Shown here piece by piece: positions 909 to 63,501 of a stretch of 64,000 nucleotides of DNA. The notes under the pieces were generated by a model, which was not told where the DNA came from, ran no database searches, and worked only from the letters and a program-made list of their open reading frames with translations. A program made the translations under genes and the position numbers. Origin of the DNA: Trypanosoma brucei (taxonomy: Eukaryota); contig CH464491.1 of assembly GCA_000002445.1 (NCBI GenBank), positions 2,464,001 through 2,528,000 of the forward strand, written 5' to 3'. Every line of letters starts with the position of its first letter. The first letter of the stretch is position 1.

Positions 909-3900
909 ATGGGAAATCAGCTCGCAGCAGCCACCGTCGTAAATGTCTCCGATGTGACGTCATCACTAGAACTTATCGCTCCACTAAGTTGTATGCACCG
1001 CAACTACTTTCGTTCCTTCCGCTGCTCCAAGGAAGCGAGTGCAGCTGTACCCTCCGATACCCTTCGCTCACTTTACTCATTTTCTCGTGGTGACAATCGG
1101 GACCAATCCGCCCTGCACCATCGTCCGTCCAACCGCGGTGGGAGCACGGAAGTTGTTTTGAAGGTTTTCGTTCGCACACTTTATAATGAAGAGGAGCAGA
1201 AAGTTGTAGAATTTTGCTATAATCATTTGTTGAGTATTGAAAGACGAATGGCGGGAGCGAAGCCAGCTAACATGCAAAATACGGGGTCGTGTGAAACCGC
1301 AGCCAGTAACGGTTCTTCCCATGATAGCAGCAACTGCGGGGTTGCGACAACCCCGCCCCCGTGCAATGTGCTTTTCTATTCGTGTATGGAAATACAAAAT
1401 GATAGGTTTTGCATGCTTCAGCGGCCCTACGTTGCTTTTTCACTCGCTGAGCGCCTTGCCACACGACCATATTGGAGCACCGCAAACCGTCTCTTCGCCA
1501 CCTACCAGTTGTTGCAGGGTACAGTTCAGCTGCACGAAGTATGGGGAACCGTTCATGGAGACCTCAAGGTTGACAACATTCTGGTCAACACCTCTGGCTG
1601 GCTTTACATTACAGATATTTGTCCCTTTAACCCCGCACTGCTCCCAGCGAACAATCCAGCACTCTTCAACTATTTCTACGATACAAACGAGTCCCATATT
1701 TGCTCATTGGCACCAGAGAAATTCGTGGATCATCCAACCAACGTTAACACATCGAACCTCAACGCGACTGTTCACACACCTGGTATGGATATTTTCTCGT
1801 TGGCGTGTGTCGTGGTGTATATATTCACCGAGGAACCCCTCTTTCGCCTGTCAGAGGTACTCGAACTGCGCTCTCTGCAAACACAACGAGAACGTGAAGA
1901 AATGATAAACAGTATTCTGCAGGAGCGGGGTCTTGCACCTAACCTTTGCCGCATGCTTTCGGATATGTTGTGCACCAATCCAAATTCTCGCCCAACGTCA
2001 CGGCAGCTTCTTGAGAGGTACACCCCAACTGTGTTTCCTCCTTATTTTGAATACCTCTACCGTGACATACTACCGGCTCTGCTGCCGCGACCACCAGAAC
2101 ATCAGGTACAACTGCTGTGGTCTCGGCTGGATGACATTTTTGCTGAAGTGGAGTGCCGTGGCAGTTTCAATAGCGGTGGTGGTAGTGGCCACAACGGTGA
2201 AGCTGATGACGGTGAATTTCCTCCACTGGTGCCGTCAAGTGACGCCAAAAAGGTTACTGTGCTAGTGCTTATTCCAATAATTCTTAATGCAGGTCTACAC
2301 CTCATGGCGTCAGAAACATGTTGTCGTGTTGTCTCCATCGTTCAGCGGATACTGCCGCATTGTACGTTGGAAGTTCAAGCGGACGTAATTCTTCCATACA
2401 TGCTGCGTTTTTTGAGGACAGAAACGTTGCCTGTTGTGGCCCGCGTTCTCGCACTTCGTACGCTGTCTACGATCTGTCATAACATTCCCTTCTCCACAGG
2501 CGAGGCAACTGTCTTCGATGACCTTATCCTTCCGTGCGTGGAGGACCTCGTGGCGAAAGCAGACACTCAGAACGTTACACTTTTATTGGAAGTGGCTGCT
2601 CAACTGCCATCGTTATTTTTGATGGCACGGTCTTTTATGGAGCAGCAGCAGGCTCTTGTTACATCAAATGAACGACAAAGCACGTATGGGGAGCAACTGA
2701 ACAGGTTGCTTGAGCGCGGCTGGGATGCTCTGCGGACACTTTACAAGCACAATCATTCGGCTGTTGTCATTGCCGCACTTCAGCGTAGTGTGGACGTGGT
2801 AAAGTTTCTGGGTGAAGAGAGGACACAGCATGATTTTATTCCGTTCCTCACTACAGCTATTGCCTCCACCATTGATGTCCAAAGGGAATTATATCCACAG
2901 GCTATATTGTGTCATACAAACCTACAACGACCTCCACTAAAGACGCTGCGTTTTTTTGTGGAGGAAGCGTTGAGACGGACTGATGCGATTATTCTTCGGC
3001 GTGCTATCGAAAGTGTATCTGTCGTGGCTTCGAGCAAATTAGTTGATGTGAGTGATGTCATGTCACTTGCGGAATGCGTGCTTCCTCATATATTGGACAA
3101 AGATAAGTGGGTGAGCCTTGCTGCGCGTCAGCTAGTGGAGGTGGTCGCTCAAACTTACCGCATGAGTGACGTGTGCACGAGACTGCCAAGCACCCTGATA
3201 CCGTTATTACGATATAAGGTACCCTTTTCAACTCTTACATCTCTTCCAGAGGAACTGGTGAATGAAATATCACAACGACCATCTTTTTCCTTGAGGCATC
3301 GGGACGAGCGACCGACGGTTCGGGTTGTCGGCGGCGATTCGAAACTGTCTCGGCGTTTCATGAACGGTTCACGCAGTAGCGACAATAGCATCACTGAAAG
3401 GAATGTGATCAACGGTGGTGCGGGTGGTTTTGTCCAGTGTCAGTCAAATTATATCCTACAACATGGGACAACGAAACGTTTCCCGCCAAACTTTCCCTTA
3501 CGTGCGGCGTTTTTTGATGTAACGTTTGACCCTAGTGTGAGGGCCGGCACCCCTTCGGCACTGGACGCAGCCGCAGTTCACGACAGCAGTGACGCCACGG
3601 CAGCCTACGCGTGGGGGTTGACTTTCAAACCAACTCATCGTGAGAAAAAGCGGCTTTTACTTCGTCAGCAAACGTACACGAATCGTGTTGACAGTAACGG
3701 TGATATCGTTGGCGGCGCACTCTTTACTTCCACTACTGAGAGCACAACTGGAAGAAGACCGTGGTTACTAGGTCCTCCGACTGGATCCCTGAGTGTCCAA
3801 CCGTCCCCTGCTTTGTACCCCGGTGTGACTTGGGCTGATAAGGAACTAAAACCTATCGCTGCTCCGTACTTCACGCGACGGGCCCATAGTGGCGCCATCT

Positions 3901-22590: not shown

Positions 22591-22779
22591 TGGCGGCTTG
22601 CTAATTTTCCTTCAGCAAACTTCCACTTTTTCCCCTTCTACGCGGTGCTTACGGCCTGGGTAGAAAATTAACAAATCTGTGCAATCGTTAATTTATGCAT
22701 TAACGCATCATTTATGGAATAGTTACTACGTGGGGAAAACGGTGAATATGCTTTTTGGGTTGTTACTATTAGCTTTTTT

Positions 22780-22790
22780 GGGGGGGGGGG
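22780..22790. repeat. G11 homopolymer in spacer
   Basis: Direct count. Confidence 0.95.
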
Positions 22791-24039
22791 TGATCGCTTT
22801 AACGTAGGTAGAGTCGAGGCGAATGAATGGGTTGGTTTGGAAGAGGAGGAGAAGGAGAAGGAGAAAAGAAAAGAAAAAAAGAAATGCAAAGGGAAGTAGA
22901 AAAGGGAACCCCTTTGAGTTTGTTACTGAAGGGAAAATACATAAGAAAAAAAAAGAACAAGGAATGAAACGGTGCGATCGAGGAGGTAGAGAAGGAGTGA
23001 AGAGGAAAAGGAAAGAGGCTCTGAATGGATTTGTGCGGCTTTCGCGTAATTTCACGCGTGGTGCATAGAATAGAGTAGGATAGCGTTGCCGGTTGATCAC
23101 GTTATTTTTGTTTTTGGTCACAGGAAGTAACATACGCATGCGTGTATATGTGTAGGTGAGACGGTACAAGGTTAAAGTGGCGTTAGAAAGGTAACTCAAC
23201 GCCAAGTTTTATACATAATAATATAATCATGATGAGTGACGGAAAAAAAAAAGACGAGACGAAAACATGTTACACACCATTGCAATTGAGGAGGAGAGTT
23301 ACGTGTGGGAGGCGACATATAATGATGTGCAAAGCGCAGGCGAACATCCGTTTTTTCTTTTGTTCCAACGTCCCTTGACCCTTCCTTTCTTTTTTGAACT
23401 TCTCTCCCTACTACCATTACTATTATTTAAGTTTGTTCGCTAAGTCACGCTCTCACACGATTACCTGCCTCCCCCTGCCGCCGCAACAGCCTTTGGGTGG
23501 CAAGGCACATATATTTATTTTTAGAATTATTGTTGTAACGATTGTTATCACTATTTATTTTTTCTCCTAGCACTTTTTTAGCTTACTTTTTTTTCGTGTG
23601 TGTGTGTGTTTCTGAAGGTTTTCCTTGCTTTTTTCTTTTATTATCCTTCTTTTGTGCCCTTCTTTGGTTCATTTGTTTTTGTGTGTCTAAGTAACCCTTC
23701 ACAGGGGTTGGACAAAACGCTGCCAAACCCAGAGCAGAACTAAGAGAAATGAAATGTAAGTCAGAACGTTAATTATTAGGAAACCAATAAGCAACGCGTC
23801 GGTTACGGACGTACAATCATGTAGATATTTTTATGGCAAACTTCCTGTGAAACTTTGTGCGCTGATGTGTCATTTCCTTTATGCTTTCTTTTTTCCTATA
23901 GCATTGCCATGTTGCTCACTTCCATTCATCCAACCCCATTCGTCTTTTTTTTTAAAAAAAAGTGGTTTTTGTGAAAGCGCTGGTGTGCCTCCCCTTTGCT
24001 CGTATGTTTGTCTTTTACTTCTTTCGCCATCGAAAGGTT

Positions 24040-24071
24040 AAATAAATAAATAAATATATATATATATATAT
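24040..24071. repeat. compound microsatellite (AAAT)4(AT)n
   Basis: Direct reading. It has the same architecture as 733-784. Confidence 0.95.
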
Positions 24072-24451
24072 AACACATCAGATTGTTAATACTACTTGTG
24101 CACGTGCAATTACTTGGCAGAGCGCAAGCCGACGATGATAAATAAATCAACTACCTTTCATTTAGTCGGTTTCTAACGGCTGCGGTTACACTGCTAACTC
24201 TTGTGTATTGCAGTTTCCTTTGTTTTTGGTGCCGTGAACCTTTCTCTACTGCTTTCTTTTTCCCCCCTTCATTCCCCATGTTATCATGTCTTTATTGTGT
24301 ATTTGTTGCATACATTTGTGGTTTCTCTCAAACACCCACAAACCCTCACCTTGTTCCACCTTTTACTCCAGCTGCATACCCGTGCGCTCCCGCACTTCCA
24401 TCGGCACGTGCATCTCATCGATTATCCACAGGTGATGCGTTTGATGCACTA

Positions 24452-24867
24452 ACAGACCTTAGCGCAATCGAGGTATTGGTGTAAAGTCGGTCAATTGTAG
24501 GCGAGTATGCATCAGTGCAAGGGCTGACAAATATTTCCCTGCAGCTGCCATGTTCGGCTGCCCTTTTGATCATCCAAACGGGTCAGTTAAACCATAGAGC
24601 GTGAGACATGCGAATAAACGTAAAGCTTTGGAGGTATATCTCCGTTACACGCTGCCCATGTGATAGGATGGCGCCTGAATGGATAAGGAAAGCGAGCTGA
24701 TGGCAGGAAGAAATGTGAATCCCATTATTTGTTGTGTGGAAATTATATGTGGATGTGAGAGTGAGAGTGAGGTTGGTAAGTTGATAACTGTACGTGTGGC
24801 GGTGATACGACACCCCACTGAATAAGATGCTTCATCAGTATCTCCTTCCTCTTCATGCCAATTCAAA
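24452..24867. repeat. inverted-repeat arm A (416 bp), reverse complement of 52818-53233
   Basis: A line-by-line reverse-complement comparison gives 415/416 identity. The single mismatch is at 24556 (partner 53129). The identical 76-aa spurious ORFs at 24583-24813(-) and 52872-53102(+) in the ORF track confirm it. Homology breaks sharply at both ends. Confidence 0.97.
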
Positions 24868-24871
24868 CCAG
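24841..24871 (+). promoter_or_regulatory. polypyrimidine tract plus AG at the right end of IR arm A, a candidate trans-splice acceptor for the 24931 gene
   Basis: tctccttcctcttc (24841-24854) is followed by AG at 24870-24871, about 60 nt before the ATG at 24931. Confidence 0.4.
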
Positions 24872-24930
24872 CTGCATATATACGCCCGTCTGCGGAGTAG
24901 GAAACGCAAGAAAGAGAGACAAGAGACAAG

Positions 24931-35021: not shown

Positions 35022-36096
35022 AATTTGAGGAAAGAAGGTGGGGAATAAAGAATGGAGGAAGGAAAGGGGGAGATAGGGACGATGTACGCAAGGTGGAGGT
35101 CGCTGCAGTAGTCACTGCGCTCGCTGTTACGAAGACAGCACGGGCAAGTGATTAACGGTCCAACTAACCGCACCCTTGAAGAGGGAAAACGATGGTAAGG
35201 GTTCCAACTTGTTTTGCTGCACTGCATGTACATATATACAAACTTAGAATTGTGCATGTATCTTGCATTCTTCGTATCTTTTTTGTGTACGTGCGCCTTC
35301 ACGTATCCCTCTCTTTTCCGTCTTCTTCTATCGCTCTGCATGTCCTCTCCTTTATTTTCGACGTGCCACGGGCGCTGTCAACCATTGGAAATGAATTCCA
35401 GCATATTATACGCAAACGCAAACATCCATTTCAGTTTGAATGGGCGGATTTTGGAGGGACGTGATCAGTCTTTTTATGTGTCTCGCAGTTCCGTACCCTT
35501 TCTCTCACACATTGCCGTGTTTTTTTTTGTGATTGCCTAACGTCTTTCAAAAAGGTGGAATTACGACACACGCAAAGGTGTGTCAAGGGTGGATATGAAG
35601 TTGAAGCAAGGGAAAGGAATGAGAATAAATGTAAAAGAGGTAACTGAAGCAGGTGGAGGTGTCTGTAGAAAGGGGGCGCACAACAAGTTGAACATGTGGA
35701 GTATCGTGAAGAATCCCAAAAGAAAACAAGAAAAAAAGAGGAAAACATTTCGCCCTTCTCTTCTTTTTATTTCCCCTCTCCTCCCTTGTTTCTCCTTCAT
35801 TTCAATAGGCTATCATAAAGAATCACTCCAGTTTATTTTTCCAGTGTTTCTGCTTCTTTTTCTGGCCCTTCTCTTCTCTTCTCTTCTCTTTTTTGCTTTT
35901 TTTCTTTTTTGTGTGAGCGATTGTTGTTATTATTGTTTTCATTACTTTCACTATCATCATCATTATTGACTCGTCCTTATTGGCGGTAAAGGACACCGTG
36001 AGAGAAGAGGGTGAATATTGTTAAAGTTGACGTAATTATGAGCCCTTCAGGAAGGATATTTCCCACCTTGTAGAATTTCATGGGAGTGTACTGTGC

Positions 36097-36114
36097 ATAT
36101 ATATATATATATAT
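36097..36114. repeat. (AT)9 microsatellite
   Basis: Direct reading. Confidence 0.9.
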
Positions 36115-37189
36115 GGATATGAATAAACATATTTATTACCTACGCAGTCCTGTTAGGCAATGTTTTGATTTGCTGCTGCTGTTGGCATTCCCCCTTCCAA
36201 CTCGATCGTGTGCCCGATTTCATCCCTCTAATTCACTTTCCCTTAAGGCTCATCTCACCTGTGACAGAGTGGGCGGCGCATGAAAATATTTTCCATTAAT
36301 TTTATATGGATGAGTTAAATTCTTTTGTTTCTGCATTTTGATTCTAGTTCGGGTGGGTTGGTGCGGTGCCACTTGTTGAAAGTGGGGTGAAGTATTTTTT
36401 TTTTAGGTTCGTAAACTGCGGCAACGACAGCAGTGACTTCATCATGAAAAGAATCCACTAGTGCGATTGTGACTGCGCGGCCCTTGTGACTTCGGGGCTG
36501 GCGGCACATAATTATCTCTACAGTTGTTTCATCGCATTGGTTTCCTTTTTTTTTCCTGGTTGCCATGGTGTTGGTGGTTCCCCGCACACACTTACCTTTT
36601 CGTTCGTTTTCACTTACTTCCTGCCATCGTGATATCGGTACTACATGAAAGAGGAGAGAGGAAATTTGGGGGGAAACTATGCGATTCTATTTTTGTGAAG
36701 AGCTGGCATTCTTCTTTTATATCGTCCCCTGTTCTGCATGCAGCTTTTCGCATATGCATAAGAGTTGAATGGTGCGGCGATGAGTCGAGAAAAGAAGGTT
36801 GGGGAAACAAAATAATCACGTGAAGGTTGGAAGGAAAAGGGAAAGGGCGGTGGAAGAAGAAACCTTAGAAGGAGAGAAGGCGATGGTAAGTGGCTTTCGA
36901 GAAGCGGAAAGCGACCTACCACGGGGGTAGGGAAATATTTTGTCCACTCTCACAGTTTTTTGTCTGCCTTGTGGTTTTTTTTAACTAGTTATTTTTTAAA
37001 AAGTAAATCACTTTTCAAAGTTGATTGCTTTTGCTCCTTCATTTGCATAATTTAGAACGTAAAGCCCCCACGACTGCTTAGAGAGAGTTCCTGTTGGAGC
37101 CACGAGACGGATGGGAAGGACAAGAAGGGTCGAAACCGTTCAGTGAATCGTACATCACACTTTCCATGATTGCATAGCCACGCACTCGT

Positions 37190-37213
37190 AAATATAAATA
37201 AATATATATATAT
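37190..37213. repeat. AAAT/AT compound microsatellite
   Basis: aaatataaataaatatatatatat read directly. Confidence 0.9.
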
Positions 37214-37453
37214 TTGCGCTTGCATATGCATATGCATAACCCCACTGAAAACACCTACTTGTGTAATTCACACCTCCAATACTTCCTACACCGCTTATAT
37301 TATTTTTTCCAATACTGCACACTTTGTGGCTTCTGTATTTATCACCTACCATTTGACTGTAGTAGTAAAGTACAGCACAGGGAAATAGTAAGGAGCGATA
37401 AGAGGAAAAACAGACGAGAGCACCGGTTTGTTGCAAGGTATAGCATCGATAGT

Positions 37454-37744
37454 ATGGGAGATTCTGAAGCCACTGCGGCTGCTGCTTTAGAGCAATCCAT
37501 GCGAAGTGGCCGGACCGTGGTTTATTATACTCACCCGCAGAAGCTTCCATCCACATCAAGGGGCCTAACCAATATCGTTTCTGGTGATCAGCAGGGCAGT
37601 GGGGCAGACAGTCGTCATTACAAACATGAAGAGGTTGTCGCGGCGGGTGATTTCTCTTTCCTCCCGTTCCCATCGTATTGTGGAAGGACAACCGCCAACA
37701 CGGTTCTCTACAAGCATTTTCTGTCTTTTGACGTCCACACATGA
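37454..37744 (+). CDS. tentative small ORF (96 aa) in an otherwise empty 3-kb spacer
   Basis: In-frame ATG (MGDSEATAAAALEQSMRSGRTVVYYTHPQKL...) inside track ORF 37214-37744, on the sense strand of the polycistron. It shows no recognisable homology, and an overlapping antisense ORF of similar length weakens the call. Confidence 0.25.
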   Translation: MGDSEATAAAALEQSMRSGRTVVYYTHPQKLPSTSRGLTNIVSGDQQGSGADSRHYKHEEVVAAGDFSFLPFPSYCGRTTANTVLYKHFLSFDVHT

Positions 37745-38086
37745 AGTGAATCTCTCAGATGCACGTTAAATCCTTCGCACGCACTTCCGCCGTTTCCACC
37801 TCACCAAATGACATCCCCCTTTGAGTTTGTCTTTCTGCTGTGTGCGCCCTTTTTTTTTTGTTGTCGCGGCAGCGGACACCTCCGAATGGTGGAAGATCCT
37901 CGGTTCCCGTGATGGTTACTAAACACCTTTCTTGCTCTCACCCTCCATTATTTGTCTTTAACTCTTTAGTATTTAGTGAAACTGCTGCAATTATTGTAAA
38001 TTACTGTCCCCCCCCCTTCGCTCACAACTGTTTGCTCGCTGAAATCGCTGCTGTCACTGCTACCCGGTTCGCACCGATAAAAGGGA

Positions 38087-50810: not shown

Positions 50811-50821
50811 GGGGGGGGGGG
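50811..50821. repeat. G11 homopolymer in the Ppd-COQ2 spacer
   Basis: Direct count. Confidence 0.95.
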
Positions 50822-53431: not shown

Positions 53432-55294
53432 ATGGAGAATGTGGTTATGGAAGCGGGGGAGGGAGGTTCTAAGTCGAATGCCCCGCAGAATGATGATGCA
53501 AGTGTCATGAATGCCTTGTACGAGCCGCCCCCTCCATTAGCTTCTGACGGTGTGGATGATGCCTTCATTGGCATGGCGTTAGAGGAATGTAGTTTACGGG
53601 ATGTTTATTCGTACAGCTGCCACAGATTTGGGGTCCGACCCAACGAAAACATCCTGCGGCAACTCCCTCCTGTTGCTGGTGATGAATGGGTTAGAAAAAT
53701 AAAGGTACTCGACTTTTCCGCGGTGTACCTTGGTGGTAAAGGGTGCCTTTCGCTCGTACCAATAATTGAACGTTGCACGGAGGCAACACATTTGATGATG
53801 CCCAACGTTGGCTTAACACACGAAGCGGCCGCGCCTCTTTTTGAAGTCATGCGGTACCACCCCAGTGTGTCGTGGATGGACGTATCGAAAAATCGCCTGA
53901 ACGATGATGTGGGTCGCTGGATTCTCAACGCCGTGATCGAAAACCCGAGGATAAGGTTCGTTCTTCTCCGAGATGCGGGTATTAGTCCACCGCTTCTGCA
54001 AAAAATCGAAAACCGTTTGCACGAACGAATGTATGGAACGGTGGAGGCTATAACTCCATCCATTCGCGTAACTTACGCCGAAGGATTTTCTCAACTGTTT
54101 GAATCCTCCCTTGGAACTGGTGCGAATGACACCGCAAGGGTTCCGGTGCATTACGTTCCCCCATCCGTGGCTGCAGGTCTTGTGGAATTACGACACCAAC
54201 TGTATCGCAATGCCGAATCCATGCGGTGCGTTTACAACTGTTTTACCCACAACCTCACACCGGAGTCGGGAGGGTGCGCAAGCGACGCAGGGACAGACGC
54301 AGAAGAATTACCGGAAACAAACAGTGAGGCCGGATTCGGCGCCCCTCACCCTGATCGCTGCTCGTGGCGGTCGTTTTTCTGTGGGCTACGCCTGCTTGGT
54401 GTCCGCGCCGTCTGCAAGTCCCTTGAAGATAGCGTGGCCTTCGCCAACTTATGCGGCATATGTAATGTTGAGACCGTACTTTTTGGAAAACTTATCCAGC
54501 TTTTGAGGCCGCATGTGGCGATTAAAGATGAGATGACGCCGGAATCACCGCCTGTGCGCGGGAACACTATTCCAAATCAGTTTGCCGACGTCTCGCCTCC
54601 GTTGGATGTGCAGCAGGGGGCATCGATGGATGCAGAAGAGATTCCATCAAGGGATCTAAGCGGCAACATGCGCGCAGCTACGCCTGAAATGGGGAAACCA
54701 CAAGCAGATACACCGTCTGTTCCTACCCAAGAGGCTGCCCGTATGGCCTCCGAAGCGAGATGCTCGCCACTCACCCTGAGGCCGCTGCATTGCACACTTC
54801 ACGAAAAAAGGTCGTCTTTAGGCCCATCCCTTTTGGACACATTCGTGACGACCCCGAGCATTGCTGGAGTGCATGCCAGTGGGCCCTTGGAGGCGCGGCT
54901 TCGGCTGGATCGTACGTTTGATTCACGGAACAAGCAGACTGTTGTGGACCAACTGTATGATGAACGTGTCACTCTTAGCGAAGTCTTCAAAAAAACAGGT
55001 GGCGAAGACCCTGATGCAAGTGCCCCATCTTACCTAGTGGATATAGATGAGGTGATTAAGCACGCCGTCTCTCGCGTAGGTGAGTCGAATCGGGAAATTG
55101 TGAAATCTTTGGTGGAGCCATGGGCTGTTGGCGTTGAGGATCGAGTGCTCGTGAATACTGAAGGTTGGTTAAGCTCCATGTACGTTCCCCAATTAGAGGC
55201 GTCAACGCTAATGCCGTTCTCGTTTTCTGAAGAAAAGCTTATCTGGGCCGGTGTCACGGTGGAGGAATTACGAGAGTCAGTTGACTTATGGTGA
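53432..55294 (+). CDS. leucine-rich-repeat (RNI-type) protein, 620 aa; last gene of the + strand cluster
   Basis: ATG ORF. The N-terminal third has RNI-like LRRs (KVLDFSAVYLGGKGCLSLVPIIERCTEATHLMMPNVGLTHEAAAPLFEVMRYHPSVSWMDVSKNRLNDDVGRWILNAV). The remainder is unassigned. Confidence 0.7.
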   Translation: MENVVMEAGEGGSKSNAPQNDDASVMNALYEPPPPLASDGVDDAFIGMALEECSLRDVYSYSCHRFGVRPNENILRQLPPVAGDEWVRKIKVLDFSAVYLGGKGCLSLVPIIERCTEATHLMMPNVGLTHEAAAPLFEVMRYHPSVSWMDVSKNRLNDDVGRWILNAVIENPRIRFVLLRDAGISPPLLQKIENRLHERMYGTVEAITPSIRVTYAEGFSQLFESSLGTGANDTARVPVHYVPPSVAAGLVELRHQLYRNAESMRCVYNCFTHNLTPESGGCASDAGTDAEELPETNSEAGFGAPHPDRCSWRSFFCGLRLLGVRAVCKSLEDSVAFANLCGICNVETVLFGKLIQLLRPHVAIKDEMTPESPPVRGNTIPNQFADVSPPLDVQQGASMDAEEIPSRDLSGNMRAATPEMGKPQADTPSVPTQEAARMASEARCSPLTLRPLHCTLHEKRSSLGPSLLDTFVTTPSIAGVHASGPLEARLRLDRTFDSRNKQTVVDQLYDERVTLSEVFKKTGGEDPDASAPSYLVDIDEVIKHAVSRVGESNREIVKSLVEPWAVGVEDRVLVNTEGWLSSMYVPQLEASTLMPFSFSEEKLIWAGVTVEELRESVDLW

Positions 55295-56293
55295 GGTTTA
55301 CTCTCTTTTGTTATTCACTAGAAGGATATGTGTAGTATATATTTCCCTATGTGAGTCGCTTATTTGCATACCGGTGAAGCGGTTCCTTATGGTGTCAGCG
55401 CCGATGCAGCAACACACGCCAAGACGACACCGCTCTGGTCGCTGGTGCTTTTTTTTTTTTTACTTCTATTTTTCTTTGCCCTCTGCGGCTACCAAAGGAG
55501 CCATCACAATTAGCAAAGGTAGAACTTAGTTGGCCGTACGGCGGGAAAGGTTGTGTGGTAGAATTGGTGTTGAATGTCCGGTGTTTTTCCAATATGTACG
55601 ATGCCGCGCAGAGGCGCAGTGAACCAGCAAAACTGTGGGGGACAAAAAGGAATATACTGATCTGCAAAAGGTCTCGGCTGACGTTTTACCACTTTTTGTG
55701 TACGGATGCGCCGAGACCGAGGTTGCAGTAAAACGTGGCACATAGGGAAAACGACAAAGAGCAATGCGAGCAGCCCCAATTGCAGGTCGCAGGCGCTCTA
55801 AGAAATAAAAGGAAGAGAATAGTGAGCAAGGCAATTCGGAAGCGTGGACCGGCGGGAAGTGCTCCGCGAGGAAAAAAAAATAAAGGCACGACTCAACAAA
55901 TCCACCTAAAAGTGCGGAGGAGAGCAGGATGGAATACATCAACTGCAACATTTATGGAACACAACACCAAGTCCAATTGCTTCCTGAAACAATTTTTTGG
56001 CGCTTGTGTAGAAAAGTGGAGCTGGAGCGGTGGAAACTCGCATGTGACTACATACTGCGATAAGTCATTAGTGAAAGGGAATTTGGGGTGGAGAGTGCAT
56101 ATGGGCAAAAATAGGTTTCCACAACAATTAAACACAAGATTGTTGATTGTTAGCAGTCGTCGCACTACCCGCTTGTGTGCAACAACTTGGCTGTGATATG
56201 GAAATGCTGTGAGCCGACGAGGTCGGGGGAGCGGATGCCAGTTTGGGGGGGCGAATCCCTTTCTTGATTTCCTCTGCCTGGCGCAAGAATGCA

Positions 56294-56313
56294 CCCCCCC
56301 CCCAAAAAAAAAA
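56294..56313. repeat. C10A10 homopolymer pair
   Basis: Direct count: C at 56294-56303 and A at 56304-56313. Confidence 0.95.
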
Positions 56314-56459
56314 GAAAACAGCTGGGGAAGCCGAGAAACACCACTGCCCAGGAGAGTATCAACGAGAAAGACAATCTCGCAAGGTTTAAATCCGACTAAT
56401 AACATTGTTGACAGCAACCCCTTTCTGATGTTCAGCAATTGTAATGTGTCTCTCGGCCC

Positions 56460-56474
56460 GGGGGGGGGGGGGGG
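56460..56474. repeat. G15 homopolymer at the skew switch point of the strand-switch region
   Basis: Direct count. Confidence 0.95.
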
Positions 56475-58008
56475 AATCCTCTCCGGCACAATTGCACCAT
56501 GCCTTTTCCAACTCGAGCTCACGCTTCATCGGTAATATGGGAATGGGAAGAGGGTAGTTTGTCAGTAACCTTTCGTGCGACTTTGCTAGCATGTACTCCA
56601 CTTTCCCCTCCACACGTGTGGATATTTTCCCCCAGTTTGAGAACCCTTTCAACGGGCTTTTCCCCTAAGTCCCGGGCGTTACACCCCCACTCCCATGATG
56701 AGCCGTTTTGAGACTTCGCCACGAGACCGCCGGTATAACTCTGCGGTGAGGAGTTCATTATTTTCTTTTGTCCTGCGTCGCCGACGCAACCTCCACGATA
56801 AGAAGAAACCCCCGCTTTCCGCGAATGGGCCACTCACGTCAGTTGTCCACCCTCGCGCGAGGAACCACTTACCAGACGAAGTGAACTTAACAACCACCCT
56901 CGTACGATCTTGTTTTTGTATAAATATTGCCCCTCTTCCCGCACGCAGCTGCGCCAGCTACAGTCCGCGGTGCTCGGAACAAACCGTTTCTCGCTTTTTC
57001 CCGCATCCCTTTACTTTCCGCGCAAGCGCGATCCGAGGACACAATGCACGACTCCAGCTCCGACGATGCACCCACCATTTCCTAGAAACCCCTCCGACAA
57101 TGAATTCCTCACGAAACGCGTCATCTTAGTTCACGAGTCCAAAAACGAGAGATAAGGACAAAAATAATCTTGCAAAAGAGTGAGATGTTACTCAGGTTTG
57201 CACCAACATAAATTGCAGCCACACAGATGGGAAGGGAAGATAAGGGCGTGCGCACGCACGCATTAGTTGGATTCGAACAAACGAACATCCCGTTGATCAA
57301 GCACAATGCACTGACGAAATGGGCTGGCGAGACCGGGCTACTCATCCGCCCACTGCGAGCCGAAGGCAGTTGTCGATAATAGCAGGCACCATTTCGCACG
57401 TAAATTCATTACACAAACACGCAAGCAGTTCCTTCATTTGTTTTGGGTTCCAAGACAGCGCAACCCCGCCGCATTTTGCCCAATTCCCATACCCGCACGC
57501 ACGCACGTGCCACTCCCCGGGAAAAAGTTGGGTCAAGATAACTTTTGCCGAGCGCCTGACGTGTGAACTCGAATCTCCAACATGGTACCTGGAACACTGC
57601 AGTGAGCCGCTAGCGCCACAGTTATTTTCGTTGGGTACATCCCAACTGCTGTGGGAAACACTGCAACCCCGTCCTGTCCCGCGAACTGTCGCCCTAAACA
57701 TGTAGAACCCGTGGCATTTCCACTCCAATGCCGCACCCAATCGGTGATATCTTTCCCGCATTCCATGCGGATGTCAAGTTCATTCGCAAGAGATGCGCCT
57801 TCAAGCCAGCACGCCAACCCCTAGCCCACCATACGACCAAAGACACGGCATTCGCGTGGCTGCATTCAGTGGCGCGTACTCGCAAAACTGCAATGTGTTC
57901 GTAGATTTGTCAACAAAGTGAAAAAAAAATAATAATAATACACTCAATCCCATCATTTGAGTGAACGTGTGCAGTCACTAATTGCCGGTGCGACATACAA
58001 AACAAACC

Positions 58009-58806
58009 TTATTCAAGTTCGCAAAGGATGCTTCGCTCCCAGCTTCCATCGATCGACAAGTCAACAAGCTCCGTGTTAACAACACTCTCCTGCTGCTGCA
58101 TACTCAAAAGAAAATGATGGAGCAAGCGAGGTGCGATAACGTGGGGAGTCGGCTCTGCCCCGCTCAATCCTCGTAGCCGGAGTTCCTCCACTAAAGACGT
58201 CGCTGCTTCGTTCGGCATCTCGCACATAACGATATCGTTGAAGTAAAGCAGATTATTACTCACATTCAGTCCCGCACCATGCATAGAGACCCAATTCCCC
58301 AGTTGAAGCCCGACGAACCCCATCTTTCGTGGTGCCACATCTCCCCAACTGTCGGACCAAACCCCAACCCTCCCTCGATGGGCGGGGATGTTGTATTCGC
58401 CCGCTACGTTAATCATAGCCTGTTCCAACACGGAACTAAACCACTCAATTGGGGAACGTGGTTTGTCAGAAGCCGTGCATTGCTTCCACAGAACCTGCAC
58501 GTTAACAATGGGGTACATAGTTACCTGCCCTGGTCCATGGAATGTGACGCCCCCTCCCCTCCTCGTCTTGACCACCTCGGCGGCACAACCCGCTTTGATG
58601 CCATTGGAAGTGTCTCGCCTGCCAATCGTGTAAACAGGAGACGAATGTTCCACAAGCAAAACAACGTTGGGGATGAGGCGAGCAGATTTGTCTCCACGAA
58701 TGTAGCGCATCTGCCTATCGATTTTCTTTCGAAAAATTGCCTCTTGCAGCCGCAGAACATCGTGGTAACGACGGCTTCCAAGGTTATACGCCCGCATTCC
58801 ATTCAT
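58009..58806 (-). CDS. LIPB: lipoyl(octanoyl) transferase LipB, 265 aa
   Basis: ATG ORF on the - strand. It carries the LipB signature RRGGGVTFHGPGQVTMYPIV, a downstream RKMGFVGLQL (lysine region), and the overall LipB length. Confidence 0.85.
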   Translation of the reverse strand: MNGMRAYNLGSRRYHDVLRLQEAIFRKKIDRQMRYIRGDKSARLIPNVVLLVEHSSPVYTIGRRDTSNGIKAGCAAEVVKTRRGGGVTFHGPGQVTMYPIVNVQVLWKQCTASDKPRSPIEWFSSVLEQAMINVAGEYNIPAHRGRVGVWSDSWGDVAPRKMGFVGLQLGNWVSMHGAGLNVSNNLLYFNDIVMCEMPNEAATSLVEELRLRGLSGAEPTPHVIAPRLLHHFLLSMQQQESVVNTELVDLSIDGSWERSILCELE

Positions 58807-59142
58807 AAGAGGGGGGGACTACATTATTCAAAAAATAAAACATGAAAGTGCGAATGAAAGAGAGAAATGAAGCGCAAGAATCAAAGGTTGGTAATGCAGC
58901 ACACCCCTCAACCCCGGAATGTAAGGAGAATTTTAGCGGTTGTTGGTGTCTTCTTCAATTTACATCGTAATATATGCACATCTATCCTCGTTTTTAGAGA
59001 ACCAAAGGCCACGCCATAATCACCCTCCTTATGTGTTTCTATCATCTTCCTCCTTCATAATTCTCTCTAGAACATAGACAAGTTCCGACATCCAAGGCTG
59101 ACGCGACGACACTCAACATCTAATTGATCATTACCACTTGCC

Positions 59143-61806
59143 TCAATCCCTGCTTCCTTCACTGCCTCGCCCACTGATATCCTCAGTTCCTGACCTTTTC
59201 ATCGCTTCACTGGCTTGGTCACTGCCAATCTCCTCAGCATCTACTTTTGCTGCTTCACTGGTTTGCTTACTCTCCGTGTCCTCGGTGTCTGGATCTTTTG
59301 CTGCTTCGCTTGTTCTCTCACTCGCACCTTCTGTACCAGACCTTTTCATCGCTTCACTGGCTTGGTCACTGCCAATCTCCTCAGCATCTACTTTTGCTGC
59401 TTCACTGGTTTGTTTACTCTCCGTGTCATCGTTGTCTGGATCTTTTGCTGCTTCGCTCGTTTTCTCATTCGCATCCTCTGTATCAGATGGCTTCCGCGCT
59501 TCACTTGTCCATTCACTGTCAATCTCCTCAGTGTCCGCCTCTTTTGCTGTTTCGCTTATCTGTTTACTGCCAATCTCCTCAGTCTCCGCCTCTTTTGCCG
59601 CACCACTCGCCTCGTTGCCTTCAATATCCCCGGTATCTGGATCTTTTGCTGCTTCACTGGCTTGTTTACTGCCAATCTCCTCAGCATCTTCTTCTTTTGC
59701 TGCTTCGCTCGTTTTCTCATTCGCATCCTCCGTATCAGATGGTTTCCCCGCCTCACATGACTGCTCGTCCCCAAACTGTTCATCGGCATATTCTTCATTG
59801 GCAACCTCCTGTGCGGCGCCTTCCTCATCCGCATTGGCACCTCCATCGGCAACAGCGTCCTCAGCAGCGACAGTGTCTTGCGCAATAGGAGGTTCTGTGA
59901 CTTGCCCCTCCTCAACCTCAACGTCACCTTCTCCACCAGCCCCATTCTCAACTGCAGAACGGGAGTGTTGGCTTGTGGAACCCTCGTGCAAACGCGAGGC
60001 GCTACCACCGGGGGCGCCCTCAGCGTGTTCACCCTTTGGAGCCTCAACACCACTGGTACTTCTCATACGCCCAACTGAAGAGGCGGAAGGAGGTGCCCCT
60101 GAGCCACCAAAGTTGTTTTGAGTTGCAACGGATGGCAGGGACAGCTCATGTCCCAGTCCGAGGGAACGTTCGTAGAGGGCAATTATGTCGGCTGAGGCGG
60201 ACAGTTTATCTTCATCTTCGCAGATTCGTTTAGCGTATGGTTCGAGTACTTGCCTGAATTGTTCATCCCCAACATTCTCAACAAACTCCAGCACAAGATG
60301 ATTATCTGACGCCTCTTTCACGTTGAATTTCGTGAACCACGGGGTTAAAACAGTGAACACTCCATTTTCGCCCGTTTCTTCAAGTTGGATCACGTTGGGA
60401 ATCCCACAAATCTCCACCTTAAAGGCAGCCTCCGTTTCTCCACTCGAAGAGAGTCGGCTGAGAGGCGGTAAAACAACTTGGCCTCCTTCCTTGGCGTTCT
60501 CGATCTGGTTCACTTGGCCGGCCTCATCACAACAATAATAAAACGGTTTAGCGTCAGTCACTTCTGACGTGCAGTGGCAGATGACTGTATATGCGAGTGT
60601 GGGGTAGTTTTTGAGTAGCGTACCCCCTGCCAACTCATCCGCCAATTCCTGCCGCACTCCAGTAAGTTCCTCAAGTTTGTCACCGTTGCATGATATCAGG
60701 AGTTGAGCCAGTTTAGCGTAAGCAATGCTTCCAGACGGATATTTCTCTGCCGCAGCGTGACACATAATGTGAATATTTTCCGCAGCGACGTTGCAACCGC
60801 TCAGATAAGCTTCCACAGTGGGTAAATCGGCGACAAGAGCCAGAGCGTCCTCCGCATCCTTCTCCGCCTCCTCACATGACATGAGAACGAACCGGCTGTT
60901 ACCCGAGCCATCCGGCTGTATTGCCAAGACTCGATGCCATATCTCCGGTTTCCATTCTGTACGGGCATCGCAGTGGGAACTGAGCACATTGACGAAGCTC
61001 CCAGTTAGTGCGGTGTCGTCTGCGGGCTGGTCCCCAGACGCCTTGCGTTTGCCGCTATCAGCGGGTGTTTCTTCGCTCTTGCTCAAGAAAGGGAAGACGT
61101 TGATAAAAGCCGTCTCTATCGCCTGACCGGCAGTCCACTTGTCGAGTGCACTGACGCTTACTTTATCACCATCAACACCGATAACCTCCGCAAGAGTACT
61201 CTCCTCTTTAGCAGAGAGAGGCCTGGCCGTCCCGACGTGCTCAAGTATGGCACGCATAAAGGACTCCCAGAAGACTTCAGACTCCCCTTCACCAAAGTAA
61301 CGCCCCCAAAAGTCAAGCAATGGCTTGCTTTCCGTGCACTCCTTGGCGGGTTTTTGGGAGCGGCACAGCTCAATAACGTAATTGATTATCTTGGGTGTGT
61401 TAATGCCCTCTATAGAGGTACGTTTCCTGCCTTCTTTAAAAAATACAAAGTAAGACTTCGATTTTCCGCGCCGGCTCTCAAGGATATCCTTCCAGAACGG
61501 TGCCAAGGATTCTCGAAACTTTACCTTGTCATCTGTTTTCATGTGCTGATGGTGCTCCTCTGTCTGGTCAATGCTCTCGAGAATGGAGTTGCACTCCACG
61601 GAGAGAAAACGAAGATACGCCTGATCAGAAGCGTCCATTTGCAAGCGCCTAAAGGTCTCAGACAGCGCCTTGCTAAGTCCCCACTCGGAACTGTACACAT
61701 CTAGTACCGCCACCCCATGTTGCTCATGTATAAGCCGAAGCTCCTGCTCCAGTTTCACGGCATTTGTGATGTCCTGTACAATTTCTGTGCGGTTTTGCTG
61801 TTGCAT
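59143..61806 (-). CDS. hypothetical protein with a thioredoxin-like N-terminal segment (no CxxC) and an acidic repetitive C-terminus (about 887 aa)
   Basis: The track start at 61824 is TTG; the first ATG is 61806 (MQQQNRTEIV). VAVLDVYSSEWGLSKALSETFRRL resembles a thioredoxin-fold strand-helix but lacks the redox Cys pair. The C-terminal 200 aa are SEAAK/DTE/EEIGS repeats. Confidence 0.7.
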   Translation of the reverse strand: MQQQNRTEIVQDITNAVKLEQELRLIHEQHGVAVLDVYSSEWGLSKALSETFRRLQMDASDQAYLRFLSVECNSILESIDQTEEHHQHMKTDDKVKFRESLAPFWKDILESRRGKSKSYFVFFKEGRKRTSIEGINTPKIINYVIELCRSQKPAKECTESKPLLDFWGRYFGEGESEVFWESFMRAILEHVGTARPLSAKEESTLAEVIGVDGDKVSVSALDKWTAGQAIETAFINVFPFLSKSEETPADSGKRKASGDQPADDTALTGSFVNVLSSHCDARTEWKPEIWHRVLAIQPDGSGNSRFVLMSCEEAEKDAEDALALVADLPTVEAYLSGCNVAAENIHIMCHAAAEKYPSGSIAYAKLAQLLISCNGDKLEELTGVRQELADELAGGTLLKNYPTLAYTVICHCTSEVTDAKPFYYCCDEAGQVNQIENAKEGGQVVLPPLSRLSSSGETEAAFKVEICGIPNVIQLEETGENGVFTVLTPWFTKFNVKEASDNHLVLEFVENVGDEQFRQVLEPYAKRICEDEDKLSASADIIALYERSLGLGHELSLPSVATQNNFGGSGAPPSASSVGRMRSTSGVEAPKGEHAEGAPGGSASRLHEGSTSQHSRSAVENGAGGEGDVEVEEGQVTEPPIAQDTVAAEDAVADGGANADEEGAAQEVANEEYADEQFGDEQSCEAGKPSDTEDANEKTSEAAKEEDAEEIGSKQASEAAKDPDTGDIEGNEASGAAKEAETEEIGSKQISETAKEADTEEIDSEWTSEARKPSDTEDANEKTSEAAKDPDNDDTESKQTSEAAKVDAEEIGSDQASEAMKRSGTEGASERTSEAAKDPDTEDTESKQTSEAAKVDAEEIGSDQASEAMKRSGTEDISGRGSEGSRD
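59192..59747 (-). repeat. coding tandem repeat: two 147-bp units (59192-59338, 59339-59485) plus degenerate related copies to about 59747
   Basis: Direct comparison of the two units shows only a handful of substitutions. The encoded 49-aa unit is SEAAKDPDxxDTESKQTSEAAKVDAEEIGSDQASEAMKRSGTE... Confidence 0.9.
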
Positions 61807-62184
61807 TACCACGCAGTAAAACAAGACACTTATAAGTCAACTGCAGTAAACCTTCTAAGCACTGCACCGTGGAGGGATGTGCGTCGAAGAATTGCGGGGG
61901 AAACGGTAGGAAAGAGATAGTCGAAAGGGGTTGCGGAACATGATAAGCACAGAAAGAATACTGAAATCGGCATTTTTTTGTCAGAGGGGAAAGGAAAAAG
62001 AAAAAGAAAATTTCCCTCCCAGACACATGGAAGATAACTAAATAATACTGATAACAACGAGACACACAACGCACAGTAATCACCAGCGTTTTTCTTCCTT
62101 CCCTTGGCATGGTTCGGTTCCACCCCACATAGATTTCGCATTCAATAAAAGAAAAAAAGAAAACATCATCAATCTTTCCCCCTC

Positions 62185-62835: not shown

Positions 62836-62940
62836 ACTGAAATTTTTCGATTAGTCAGTATACGCGCATATTCGTGTGACGAACGGCAAGGTGTTGAGAG
62901 AATGAAATAGGGGAGAGAGTACGTAGATGTATGCATTTAC

Positions 62941-62984
62941 AAATAAATAAATACATATATATGTATATATATATATATGTGTGT
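62941..62984. repeat. compound microsatellite (AAAT)3 / AT / GT
   Basis: Direct reading. Confidence 0.9.
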
Positions 62985-63501
62985 ATCAGTGTAAAGGTGA
63001 AAATGAACAAACAAAAAGTGTGGACACGAAAATCGGAGATGAACGACGCCCTCCATCCCGCCCTCGGGGTGCCTGTCCATCACTTGGTAACACGGCAAAA
63101 AGGGAAGAAGCAAATTTCTTTTATCTCCCATATCACATCCCCCACACCGTCAGTGTATGTGTTTCTCCTTCAAGCATTTCCGTTCCTTCCTATACGCATG
63201 TGTGCACACCCGCGCACGTGTGCCGTGACACATCTGGCCAACTTGTCTTATGCCCCTTGCGGTAAAATACGGAAGAAGGAGCTTCGCCCCCTCTTCGCCT
63301 CTTCACCTCCGCCCAGCCGTCAATGTTATACCCTCTGGAGGCAGCGACGCCGACACGGCACCACGGCCGCCACAGCATTACAGAACAACAGCAACAAAAC
63401 ATACAAACAGAAAGAAGAATGAGGGGGAAGAAAAAGAGAGAGAACAGTAATGTCCATTTAGAAAAAATGGCGTCGTTTTTTCTTGCTCTTTTTCATTTCC
63501 T

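What the first reader, a model, noticed from the sequence alone, without database searches (positions are those of the whole stretch)
55295..58008. G/C skew changes sign at a G15 tract in the middle of the convergent strand-switch region
I made hand counts on the + strand. Left of about 56480, G exceeds C: 55801-55860 has G22/C7, 55981-56040 has G19/C9, and 56041-56100 has G19/C7. Right of it, C exceeds G: 56761-56820 has C22/G10, 57001-57060 has C24/G12, and 57061-57120 has C23/G9. Each converging transcription unit would therefore produce G-rich RNA right up to a meeting point marked by G15 (56460-56474), with G7 (56245-56251) and C10A10 (56294-56313) close by. This mirror-image skew suggests that transcription from both sides runs about 1.2-1.5 kb past the last stop codons and collides or terminates near 56.47 kb. 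G-rich nascent RNA with homopolymeric G is the kind of sequence that favours R-loops and G-quadruplexes. In trypanosomes, convergent regions are known termination zones (base J, H3.V, H4.V).
Basis: partly seen in the sequence, partly recalled or inferred. Interest (0 to 1): 0.5.

Follow-up and report, generated by a model that had tools for sequence, protein, structure and literature searches.

The report
Strand-skew flip at trypanosome convergence site
The G-versus-C imbalance really does change sign in the gap where two Trypanosoma brucei gene arrays converge, but this is a known genome-wide signature of transcription direction, at a convergence site that published work already lists as producing small RNAs from both strands, and the G15 run is a strain-specific detail, not a conserved marker.

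Summary
The window is T. brucei brucei TREU927 chromosome 11. Region 55295-58008 is the convergent strand-switch region between Tb11.01.1140 (+) and the LipB gene (-).

The G/C skew flip is real: the cumulative G-C maximum of the whole 64 kb lies at 56251, with LLR 17.1 against at most 10.5 in 1000 shuffles. It sits at the G7/C10A10 pair near 56.25 kb, followed by a flat stretch to about 56.6 kb, not specifically at G15.

In T. b. gambiense and a second T. brucei-group assembly, "G15" is two shorter G runs separated by 106 bp. There the switch is sharp and excludes that site.

G>C on the coding strand is an established trypanosomatid property. This locus is CTU48 of Tschudi et al. 2012, which gives abundant DCL2-dependent siRNAs from both strands, so transcription overlaps rather than stopping at one point. 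Published DRIP-seq shows little R-loop signal at T. brucei convergent regions. G-quadruplex enrichment at termination sites was published in 2026.

Verdict: a real observation, a mostly known interpretation, and low novelty.

The parts
53432..55294 (+). Last gene of the + polycistronic unit (Tb11.01.1140, 620 aa, hypothetical conserved)
   Evidence: ORF. The protein is identical to T. brucei TREU927 EAN79889. Tschudi 2012 probe primers map at 53435-53457 and 54015-54039.
55295..56244 (+). Non-coding flank of the + unit with G>C on the + strand (skew about +0.16 to +0.18). It is purine-rich (60.8% purine at 55550-56149). A T13 polypyrimidine tract lies at 55449-55461.
56245..56313 (.). Skew change point: G7 (56245-56251), a 42-bp spacer, then C10A10 (56294-56313). 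The sense-strand G-rich domains of the two units end here in facing G runs (G7 on +, T10G10 on -).
   Evidence: The cumulative G-C maximum is at 56251. The same position is found in L006, L007 and L001, with support at offsets 949-999. Tract lengths vary between strains: G7/8/12, C9-10, A10-13.
56252..56600 (.). Plateau of near-zero G/C skew (cumulative G-C 62-71). This is the inferred zone where the influence of the two transcription directions balances.
   Evidence: That it marks the overlap zone is an inference.
56460..56474 (+). G15 tract. It is the only canonical G4 motif, (G3N1)3G3, in the region. It is allele- or assembly-specific: it is the junction of a 106-bp indel between two shorter G runs.
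   Evidence: In L006 and L007 the site reads GGTG7 + 106 bp + G9-10. In T. equiperdum OVI it reads 27 N + G16.
56475..58008 (-). Non-coding flank of the - unit with C>G on the + strand (sense skew +0.178). CCC+ runs occur at 21.5/kb against 9.6/kb in the + unit (the sense-strand comparator there, GGG+, is 12.0/kb). A loose G4 motif on the - strand at 57464-57494 is conserved in all four assemblies.
55893..56405 (-). Annotated ORF Tb11.01.1150 (170 aa) inside the gap. Most likely not a gene.
   Evidence: Exact match to EAN79890.1, a singleton cluster. Against 1.84 billion representatives it matched only itself plus one weak, short hit (P0133: E 1.1e-05, 41% identity over query residues 48-77). 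No Pfam match. Gambiense annotates a different ORF here, and T. equiperdum annotates none.
58009..58806 (-). Last gene of the - unit: lipoyl(octanoyl) transferase LipB (Tb11.01.1160)
   Evidence: Pfam PF21948, E = 1.2e-19. EAN79891.
59143..61824 (-). Tb11.01.1170, a repeat-containing 893-aa ORF. It is the second gene probed by Tschudi et al. for CTU48.
   Evidence: Primers map at 61199-61223 and 61779-61803. Tandem repeats.

Best explanation
This is an ordinary convergent strand-switch region (transcription termination region) of Trypanosoma brucei chromosome 11, between Tb11.01.1140 and LipB. In trypanosomatids the coding (non-template) strand carries an excess of G over C that follows the direction of constitutive polycistronic transcription. 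Both converging RNA polymerase II units keep transcribing far beyond their last stop codons, so each imprints its own G>C bias on the non-coding DNA it crosses, and the two opposite biases meet inside the gap. The meeting point is near 56.25 kb, at a facing G-run/C-run pair, and is followed by about 350 bp with no net skew. Transcription does not stop dead there. Some polymerases from each side run on into the other's territory, giving double-stranded RNA that Dicer-like 2 cuts into siRNAs. The G and C homopolymers are hypervariable low-complexity tracts of the kind also found in ordinary spacers. G15 itself is a TREU927-specific (or assembly-specific) junction.

Shown here: the skew, its position, its excess over background, the strain variation, and the identity of the locus. 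Taken from papers: the siRNAs at this locus, the generality of the skew, and the G4 and R-loop maps. Inferred: that the skew is a footprint of time-averaged transcription (mutational or selective), and that the plateau corresponds to the overlap zone.
For: Skew follows gene orientation across all 64 kb, with one global cumulative maximum at 56251. Codon position 3 (+0.061) and spacers (+0.035) carry the same sign as the CDS. The change point reproduces in four T. brucei-group assemblies. An independent T. cruzi convergent region downstream of the orthologous gene has its cumulative maximum inside the 623-bp gap and no homopolymers. Published statements say that skew tracks transcription direction in L. 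major and T. brucei. The locus is CTU48: primers match exactly, and 7394 small RNAs are split equally between the strands and depend on DCL2. Dual-strand transcription at T. brucei cSSRs is documented. There is no tRNA, Rfam family, repeat element, conserved ORF or cross-species conservation in the gap.
Against: The flank skew (0.16-0.18) is about three times the near-neutral baseline of the same unit (0.04-0.06). Simple equal-rate transcription-coupled bias does not predict this. Relaxed constraint, slow elongation in termination chromatin, or selection for G-rich elements must be invoked, and none was tested. The left half has A>T rather than the T>A typical of the sense strand. The homopolymer cluster sits exactly at the switch (P about 0.01-0.05), so a functional role is not excluded. 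I could not see where the siRNAs, H3.V, H4.V or base J actually peak within this locus.
Confidence: 0.75

Rival explanations
1. G-rich nascent RNA and homopolymeric G on the non-template strand form R-loops or G-quadruplexes that pause and terminate Pol II from each side at the centre of the gap. The + polymerases meet G7 and G15; the - polymerases meet T10G10.
For: G runs lie on both strands at the switch. G15 is a minimal canonical G4 motif. The - sense strand of the right flank is rich in G runs. G4 ChIP-seq peaks are about 5-fold enriched at T. brucei termination sites, and a G4 ligand lowers expression of TTS-associated genes. In L. major, G4 peaks occur on both strands at the centre of base-J sites. 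Base J entry sites in Leishmania cSSRs lie next to G-rich, G4-prone sequence.
Against: G15 is missing from gambiense and GCA_003543875.1, where no canonical + strand G4 motif remains in the gap. The T. cruzi convergent region flips skew without any G/C run of 6 or more. DRIP-seq shows little R-loop enrichment at T. brucei cSSRs, and GC skew is inversely correlated with DRIP signal around start codons (the ATGs) of Pol II genes. G runs of 10 or more also occur in ordinary intra-unit spacers at 22780 and 50811, where transcription continues. The siRNAs show that polymerases pass the centre.
Confidence: 0.15
2. The skew flip is replication-associated. A + to - change is what leading-strand G>C bias would give at a zone where two replication forks converge (a terminus).
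For: The sign order, + then -, fits fork convergence under the leading-strand G>C rule. Localised replication-linked skew has been reported at L. major origins. T. brucei origin centres have purine-rich sequence upstream and pyrimidine-rich sequence downstream, which resembles 55.5-56.9 kb.
Against: Skew follows gene orientation over the entire window, including codon position 3. The papers read attribute the dominant skew to transcription. SNS-seq origins are not enriched at T. brucei TSS, TTS or HT regions. The T. cruzi site flips within a 623-bp gap exactly between converging genes. Replication and transcription are largely co-directional, so the two are hard to separate from sequence alone.
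Confidence: 0.08
3. The central homopolymers act as a weak divergent GT-rich promoter. T10G10 on the - strand fires leftward and G15 on the + strand fires rightward. Antisense transcription across both terminal genes would then be the source of the dsRNA and siRNAs.
For: GGGGGGGGGG is the top coding-strand 10-mer at the 5' ends of T. brucei transcription start regions (132 against 17). CGGGGGGGGG and TTTTGGGGGG are also listed, and synthetic elements containing T-run/G-run junctions drive directional transcription. The C-run then G-run order (56294, 56460) is the order of a divergent start region. CTU48 is among the strongest siRNA loci, and its siRNAs overlap annotated genes. Tschudi et al. 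noted that the origin of the dsRNA was unresolved.
Against: The outward flanks are not GT-rich: G+T is 0.47-0.48 against a background sense value of 0.52, and they are C-rich. G15 is absent in other strains. Reynolds et al. detect nascent RNA spanning the last gene's poly(A) site into cSSRs, i.e. read-through. No H2A.Z or TSS data exist for this site, and single G runs were never tested alone.
Confidence: 0.07
4. The skewed flanks are decayed or unannotated protein-coding genes, for example Tb11.01.1150 or a remnant of a gene lost at this synteny break.
For: An ORF is annotated in TREU927, and a different one in gambiense. The purine-rich composition of 55.55-56.15 kb resembles the coding sense strand. 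The site is a synteny break, with lineage-specific insertions in other trypanosomes.
Against: The ORF is an orphan among 1.84 billion representatives. It has no Pfam hit. It lies on the strand opposite to the local skew. Annotations disagree. tblastx and blastn against the regions downstream of the orthologues in three species find nothing.
Confidence: 0.03

Closest known systems
Transcription-direction-linked strand asymmetry of trypanosomatid polycistronic units (G>C and T>A on the coding strand; McDonagh 2000, El-Sayed 2005 and Siegel 2009, as cited in PMC7511235 and PMC5579346)
   Same: G>C on the sense strand of both units, in CDS, codon position 3 and spacers. The sign reverses where the units converge.
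   Different: Here the bias is about three times stronger in the non-coding flanks than inside the unit. The left flank has A>T instead of T>A.
siRNA-producing convergent transcription units of T. brucei (Tschudi et al. 2012), also described as dual-strand transcribed cSSRs (Reynolds et al. 2016)
   Same: This is the same locus, CTU48: primers match exactly, the chromosome 11 interval is 2.515-2.525 Mb, and it yields DCL2-dependent small RNAs from both strands.
   Different: Those papers did not describe base composition or homopolymers. I could not see how their reads are distributed relative to 56.25 kb.
G-quadruplex enrichment at T. brucei transcription termination sites (PMC13316426, 2026), and G4 peaks on both strands at L. 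major base-J sites (PMC7511235)
   Same: G runs lie on both strands at the centre of a termination region, and G15 fits the canonical motif.
   Different: The canonical motif exists only in the TREU927 and T. equiperdum OVI alleles. The other alleles have G7-G12 runs that do not meet the canonical definition. Whether a G4 peak was called at this locus is unknown.
GC-skewed, R-loop-forming terminators of human genes (Ginno et al. 2013, as cited in PMC6294496)
   Same: Positive GC skew on the non-template strand downstream of the last gene.
   Different: In T. brucei, DRIP-seq shows little enrichment at convergent regions, and skew does not predict R-loops.
GT-rich dispersed promoters of T. brucei transcription start regions (Wedel et al. 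2017)
   Same: G10+ and T-run/G-run 10-mers identical to those enriched at the 5' ends of start regions.
   Different: The context is convergent, the surrounding sequence is not GT-rich in the outward direction, and there is no chromatin evidence.

Membership tests
Trypanosomatid convergent strand-switch region / Pol II termination region | Two polycistronic units on opposite strands converge, with conserved genes on each side | tested here: met
   All long ORFs from 909 to 55294 are on +, and those from 58009 onward are on -. Flanking proteins are TREU927 EAN79889 and EAN79891 (LipB).
Trypanosomatid convergent strand-switch region / Pol II termination region | Enrichment of H3.V, H4.V and base J | not testable with these tools
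   No ChIP tracks are available. Only the general statements in PMC4721609 and PMC6294496 could be read.
Trypanosomatid convergent strand-switch region / Pol II termination region | Optional Pol III genes (tRNA, snRNA) in the gap | tested here: not met
   ARAGORN found 0 genes. Rfam found nothing at gathering thresholds, and only chance-level hits at E <= 1.
siRNA-producing convergent transcription unit (Tschudi 2012) | Accumulation of DCL2-dependent small RNAs from both strands | tested here: met
   Locus identity was shown by exact primer matches. The published counts are 3646 top and 3748 bottom, with dcl2-/- at 0.006 of wild type. The small-RNA data themselves are from the paper, not recomputed here.
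Transcription-linked strand asymmetry | G>C on the sense strand of both units, reversing at the switch | tested here: met
   T. cruzi replicate.
Transcription-linked strand asymmetry | T>A on the sense strand | tested here: inconclusive
   Met in spacers (-0.10), codon position 3 (-0.12) and the right flank (sense -0.07). Not met in the left flank (+0.06 to +0.10, and +0.22 at 55550-56149).
Canonical G-quadruplex motif | Four G runs of 3 or more with loops of 1-7 nt | tested here: inconclusive
   Met by G15 in the window and G16 in T. equiperdum OVI. Not met on the + strand in gambiense or GCA_003543875.1. Folding in vivo is not testable here.
R-loop-forming GC-skewed terminator | RNA-DNA hybrid signal (DRIP) over the skewed region | not testable with these tools
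   The published genome-wide result argues against it as a class: enrichment at T. brucei cSSRs is limited.
GT-rich start-region promoter (Wedel 2017) | GT-rich 10-mers enriched on the strand that is transcribed outward, within an H2A.Z domain | tested here: not met
   The G10-type 10-mers are present, but the outward flanks have G+T of 0.47-0.48, below background. H2A.Z is not testable.
Replication origin skew switch | Skew changes from negative to positive across the site | tested here: not met
   The change here is from positive to negative. The origin polarity is as described in PMC7511235.

The most novel reading that the evidence does not exclude
The facing homopolymers at the centre of the gap (T10G10 on the - strand, G15 or G7+G10 on the + strand) are not passive. 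They form a weak divergent, start-region-like element that launches antisense transcription outward over both terminal genes. This would supply the double-stranded RNA for the unusually abundant DCL2-dependent siRNAs of CTU48, so siRNA output of convergent regions would be set by central G-run content, not by read-through alone.
Probability: 0.07. Interest if true: 0.55.

Novelty: already known. Interest (0 to 1): 0.2.

Why it matters
Where and how RNA polymerase II stops at the ends of trypanosome gene arrays is still not settled. A skew change point is a free, sequence-only estimate of where the dominant transcription direction has flipped over evolutionary time. If it proved to coincide with measured termination and siRNA zones across all convergent regions, it could be used to annotate termination zones in trypanosomatid genomes that have no functional data.

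For this particular finding the practical value is mainly corrective. The flip is the expected signature of a known siRNA-producing convergence site. The eye-catching G15 is a strain- or assembly-specific junction and should not be treated as a conserved termination signal.

Tried and rejected
1. tRNA and Rfam scans of the gap and of the whole window found nothing.

2. Direct, inverted and tandem repeats: only the C10/G15 complementarity and homopolymers were found. The C10...G15 hairpin folds no better than shuffles (z = -1.5 and -1.3).

3. Coding potential: no Pfam hit. The annotated ORF is an orphan, and annotations disagree.

4. Conservation: tblastx and blastn of the gap found nothing against the regions downstream of the orthologues in T. 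congolense, T. cruzi and T. conorhini, nor against the rest of the window.

5. I tried to obtain further convergent regions through orthologues of LipB. In T. cruzi, T. theileri and T. vivax the gene is followed by same-strand RHS, GP63 or retroelement genes. In Leishmania and Leptomonas it is internal to a unit. Only the T. cruzi region after the Tb11.01.1140 orthologue served as an independent replicate. Other convergent regions of the same T. brucei genome could not be fetched with these tools.

6. Homopolymer clustering: nominal Poisson P = 1.8e-4, but 0.014 after correcting for the number of windows, and 0.05 by Monte-Carlo, so it is not compelling.

7. The idea that skew is carried by G/C runs (isolated G and C are equal) turned out to be largely what a simple composition model predicts.

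8. The gene-ID link from Tb927.11.9380 to the gap ORF rests on gene order (Tb927.11.9420 is the V-ATPase stalk subunit) and could not be verified directly.
Full report
**Identity of the locus**

The 620-aa protein encoded at 53432-55294 (+) is identical to T. brucei brucei TREU927 EAN79889. It differs at 3 residues from T. equiperdum and at 15 from T. b. gambiense. The 265-aa ORF at 58009-58806 (-) is the LipB-type lipoyl(octanoyl) transferase EAN79891. Both lie on a 5.26-Mb record, which is chromosome 11.

All long ORFs from 909 to 55294 are on the + strand, and those from 58009 to the end of the window are on the - strand. Region 55295-58008 is therefore a 2714-bp convergent strand-switch region. 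It contains no tRNA, no Rfam family and no dispersed or tandem repeat apart from homopolymers.

The one ORF annotated inside it in TREU927 is Tb11.01.1150 (55893-56405, -, 170 aa). It is not credible as a gene:
- It is an orphan among 1.84 billion representative proteins.
- It has no Pfam match.
- It is replaced by a different ORF in the gambiense annotation and by none in T. equiperdum.

**Check of the observation**

Over the whole window the cumulative G-C count rises through the + unit and falls through the - unit, with a single global maximum at 56251. Within the gap, a two-segment model beats a one-segment model by a log-likelihood ratio of 17.1. The mean over 1000 shuffles was 2.5 and the maximum 10.5.

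The best change point is 56237-56251, which is the G7 tract. Cumulative G-C is then flat (62-71) until about 56.6 kb. The 2-lnL support interval, 56237-56598, merely includes G15.

| Region | Sense-strand G/C skew |
|---|---|
| CDS of the + unit | +0.071 |
| Spacers of the + unit | +0.035 |
| Codon position 3 | +0.061 |
| 1-kb windows of the + unit | 0.063 +/- 0.067 |
| Gap, left part (55295-56293) | +0.158 (94th percentile) |
| Gap, right part (56475-58008) | +0.178 (97th percentile) |

The flanks are clearly, though not extremely, more skewed than the background.

The mirror image holds only for G/C. The left flank is purine-rich (60.8% purine at 55550-56149, A>T). The right flank, read in its own sense, is G+T-rich.

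**The G15 tract is not a conserved feature**

In T. b. gambiense DAL972 (L006) and in assembly GCA_003543875.1 (L007), the sequence at that position reads GGTGGGGGGG, then a unique 106-bp C-rich segment, then G9-G10. T. equiperdum OVI has a 27-N assembly gap followed by G16.

The other tracts also vary in length between these assemblies: G7/G8/G12, C9-10, A10-13 and T10-13.

In the two assemblies that carry the 106-bp segment, the change point is sharp. Its support runs from offset 949 to 999 from the + stop, i.e. from the first G run to the C run. That excludes the G15 equivalent.

The real architecture at the switch is therefore G(7-12), 42 bp, C(9-10)A(10-13). The G-rich sense domain of each unit ends in a G run facing the other.

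G/C runs of 7 or more occur at 0.46 per kb in the other non-coding DNA of the window. Examples are T6G11 at 22774-22790 and G11 at 50811, both in ordinary intra-unit spacers. Three such runs within 230 bp is only marginally unusual (corrected P about 0.014; Monte-Carlo 0.05).

G15 is the only canonical G4 motif of the gap, and it is lost in the alleles with the insert. Pairing of C10 with G15 gives no fold better than shuffled sequence.

**What is known about the skew**

Damasceno et al. 2020 state that the major correlate of base skew in L. major is transcription direction, with positive G skew on the coding strand. They cite McDonagh 2000 and El-Sayed 2005. Wedel et al. 2017 refer to the known G-to-C and T-to-A skew in L. 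major and T. brucei. A sign reversal where two units converge is therefore expected.

An independent replicate supports this. In T. cruzi, the orthologue of Tb11.01.1140 is also followed by a convergent region, 623 bp long and facing a GP63 array. The cumulative G-C maximum of that 22-kb locus falls inside the gap, at L003 12261, with no G/C run of 6 or more nearby.

In Leishmania tarentolae and Leptomonas pyrrhocoris, LipB is internal to a unit. In T. cruzi, T. theileri and T. vivax it is followed by RHS, GP63 or retroelement genes. The site is thus a Trypanosoma-specific synteny break, and the gap interior is not conserved.

**What is known about this very locus**

The supplementary primer list of Tschudi et al. 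2012 gives Northern probes for Tb11.01.1140 and Tb11.01.1170. All four primers match the window exactly, at 53435-53457, 54015-54039, 61199-61223 and 61779-61803. These probes were used for convergent transcription unit CTU48 (Tb927_11_01_v4: 2,515,000-2,525,000).

The published results for CTU48 are:
- 3646 top-strand and 3748 bottom-strand small RNAs in wild type, 7th of the 48 units listed.
- 1.31-fold of wild type in dcl1-/- and 0.006-fold in dcl2-/-.
- The siRNAs overlap annotated genes.
- The two mRNAs were unchanged in the DCL2 knockout.

Reynolds et al. 2016 describe such sites as regions of dual-strand, overlapping transcription that is attenuated by H3.V. Their S2 table lists chromosome 11, 2,517,606-2,523,771, which is probably this site. 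I infer that equivalence from the coordinates alone. The values are 7.3 RPM in wild type and 14.3 RPM in the H3.V knockout, not significant.

They contradict a clean collision at one point, because equal siRNAs from both strands require overlap.

A tentative further link: Tb927.11.9380 is listed by Ouna et al. 2012 as "hypothetical", at 1.1 rpkm against a median of 30.6, 14-fold up after CTR9 RNAi, and the last ORF at a convergent stop. It is most likely the gap ORF Tb11.01.1150. That follows from gene order counted back from Tb927.11.9420, the V-ATPase stalk subunit. This ID mapping is my inference and is unverified.

**R-loops and G-quadruplexes**

Briggs et al. 2018 found DRIP-seq enrichment at start regions but only limited signal at convergent regions. 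The peaks there were due to tRNA genes in 2 of the 15 regions analysed. GC skew was inversely correlated with DRIP signal around the ATGs (start codons) of all Pol II genes. This weakens the R-loop part of the interpretation.

A 2026 G4 ChIP-seq study reports about 5-fold enrichment of G4 peaks at both TSS and TTS in T. brucei, and 2.6-2.9-fold at TTS in re-annotated G4-seq. A G4 ligand reduced expression of TTS-associated genes, and the authors suggest G4s may enhance termination. In Leishmania, base J entry sites in convergent regions lie next to G-rich, G4-prone sequence, and G4 peaks on both strands align at base-J sites.

The G4-at-terminators idea is therefore already in the literature. 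Whether it applies here is doubtful, given the strain variation.

**An alternative reading of the G runs**

In Wedel et al. 2017, G10 is the most coding-strand-biased 10-mer at the 5' ends of start regions (132 against 17). CGGGGGGGGG and TTTTGGGGGG are also listed.

Read outward, T10G10 on the - strand and G15 on the + strand have the order of a divergent start region. They could in principle seed antisense transcription. However, the outward flanks are not GT-rich (G+T 0.47-0.48 against a background of 0.52), and G15 is not conserved. I rate this at about 7%.

**Conclusion**

The best explanation is the known transcription-linked strand asymmetry, extended by read-through from both units into a known siRNA-producing convergent region.

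Two things remain unexplained. The first is why the flank skew is about three times the intra-unit baseline. The second is why the left flank is purine-rich rather than GT-rich. Neither is testable with the data at hand. Novelty is low.

Noticed in passing
window 56443-56474; L006 12342-12447; L007 12337-12442; L001 about 3602-3644: There is a 106-bp indel exactly at the G15 tract. Gambiense and GCA_003543875.1 carry a unique C-rich 106-bp segment between two G runs. TREU927 has a single G15. T. equiperdum OVI has an N gap plus G16. This is either a real deletion between G runs or an assembly collapse in the reference.
   Followed up: partly
window 59181-59706 (inside ORF 59143-61824, -): Tandem repeats of 147 bp and 48-51 bp inside Tb11.01.1170 give the most extreme composition of the window (GC skew -0.33 and AT skew -0.36 at 59-60 kb). 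The protein length differs between strains: 893 aa here, 887 aa in T. equiperdum, and 987 + 777 aa in gambiense.
   Followed up: no
L006 5797-9661, compared with window 57616-61824: T. b. gambiense has a segmental duplication of LipB (the second copy is 217 aa), about 390 bp of its gap-side flank, and the repeat protein. Part of the convergent-region flank is therefore duplicated inside the - unit.
   Followed up: no
window 22774-23030: T6G11 is followed by about 250 nt of GA-rich low complexity in a 2.3-kb intra-unit spacer (22591-24930). This stretch has the highest purine content (66%) and G/C skew (0.28) of the + unit. It resembles the left flank of the convergent region but lies inside a transcribed unit. 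There is no Rfam hit.
   Followed up: partly
window 35022-38086: A second long spacer (3.1 kb) in the + unit holds overlapping ORFs on both strands (37155-37742 on -, 37214-37744 on +) and a C9 tract at 38008. It was not examined.
   Followed up: no
window 62931-63422 (+): A 163-aa ORF lies on the + strand inside the - unit. It is annotated in T. equiperdum, and as 172 aa in gambiense. It is probably spurious, and an (AT)18 repeat lies at its start (62943-62978).
   Followed up: no
window 55295-58008 and 909-55294: Isolated G and C are equally frequent. The whole skew is carried by GG/GGG+ runs against CC/CCC+ runs (doublets +0.32 and -0.43, runs of 3 or more +0.38 and -0.40 in the two flanks). 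A simple composition model mostly predicts this, though doublets exceed it.
   Followed up: partly
window 55893-56405 (-): Tb927.11.9380 is listed in Ouna et al. 2012 as a 'hypothetical' last ORF at a convergent stop, at 1.1 rpkm and 14-fold up after CTR9 (PAF complex) RNAi. By gene order it is most likely this gap ORF. If so, poly(A)+ RNA over the centre of the gap is normally very low and depends on PAF. The ID mapping is inferred, not verified.
   Followed up: partly
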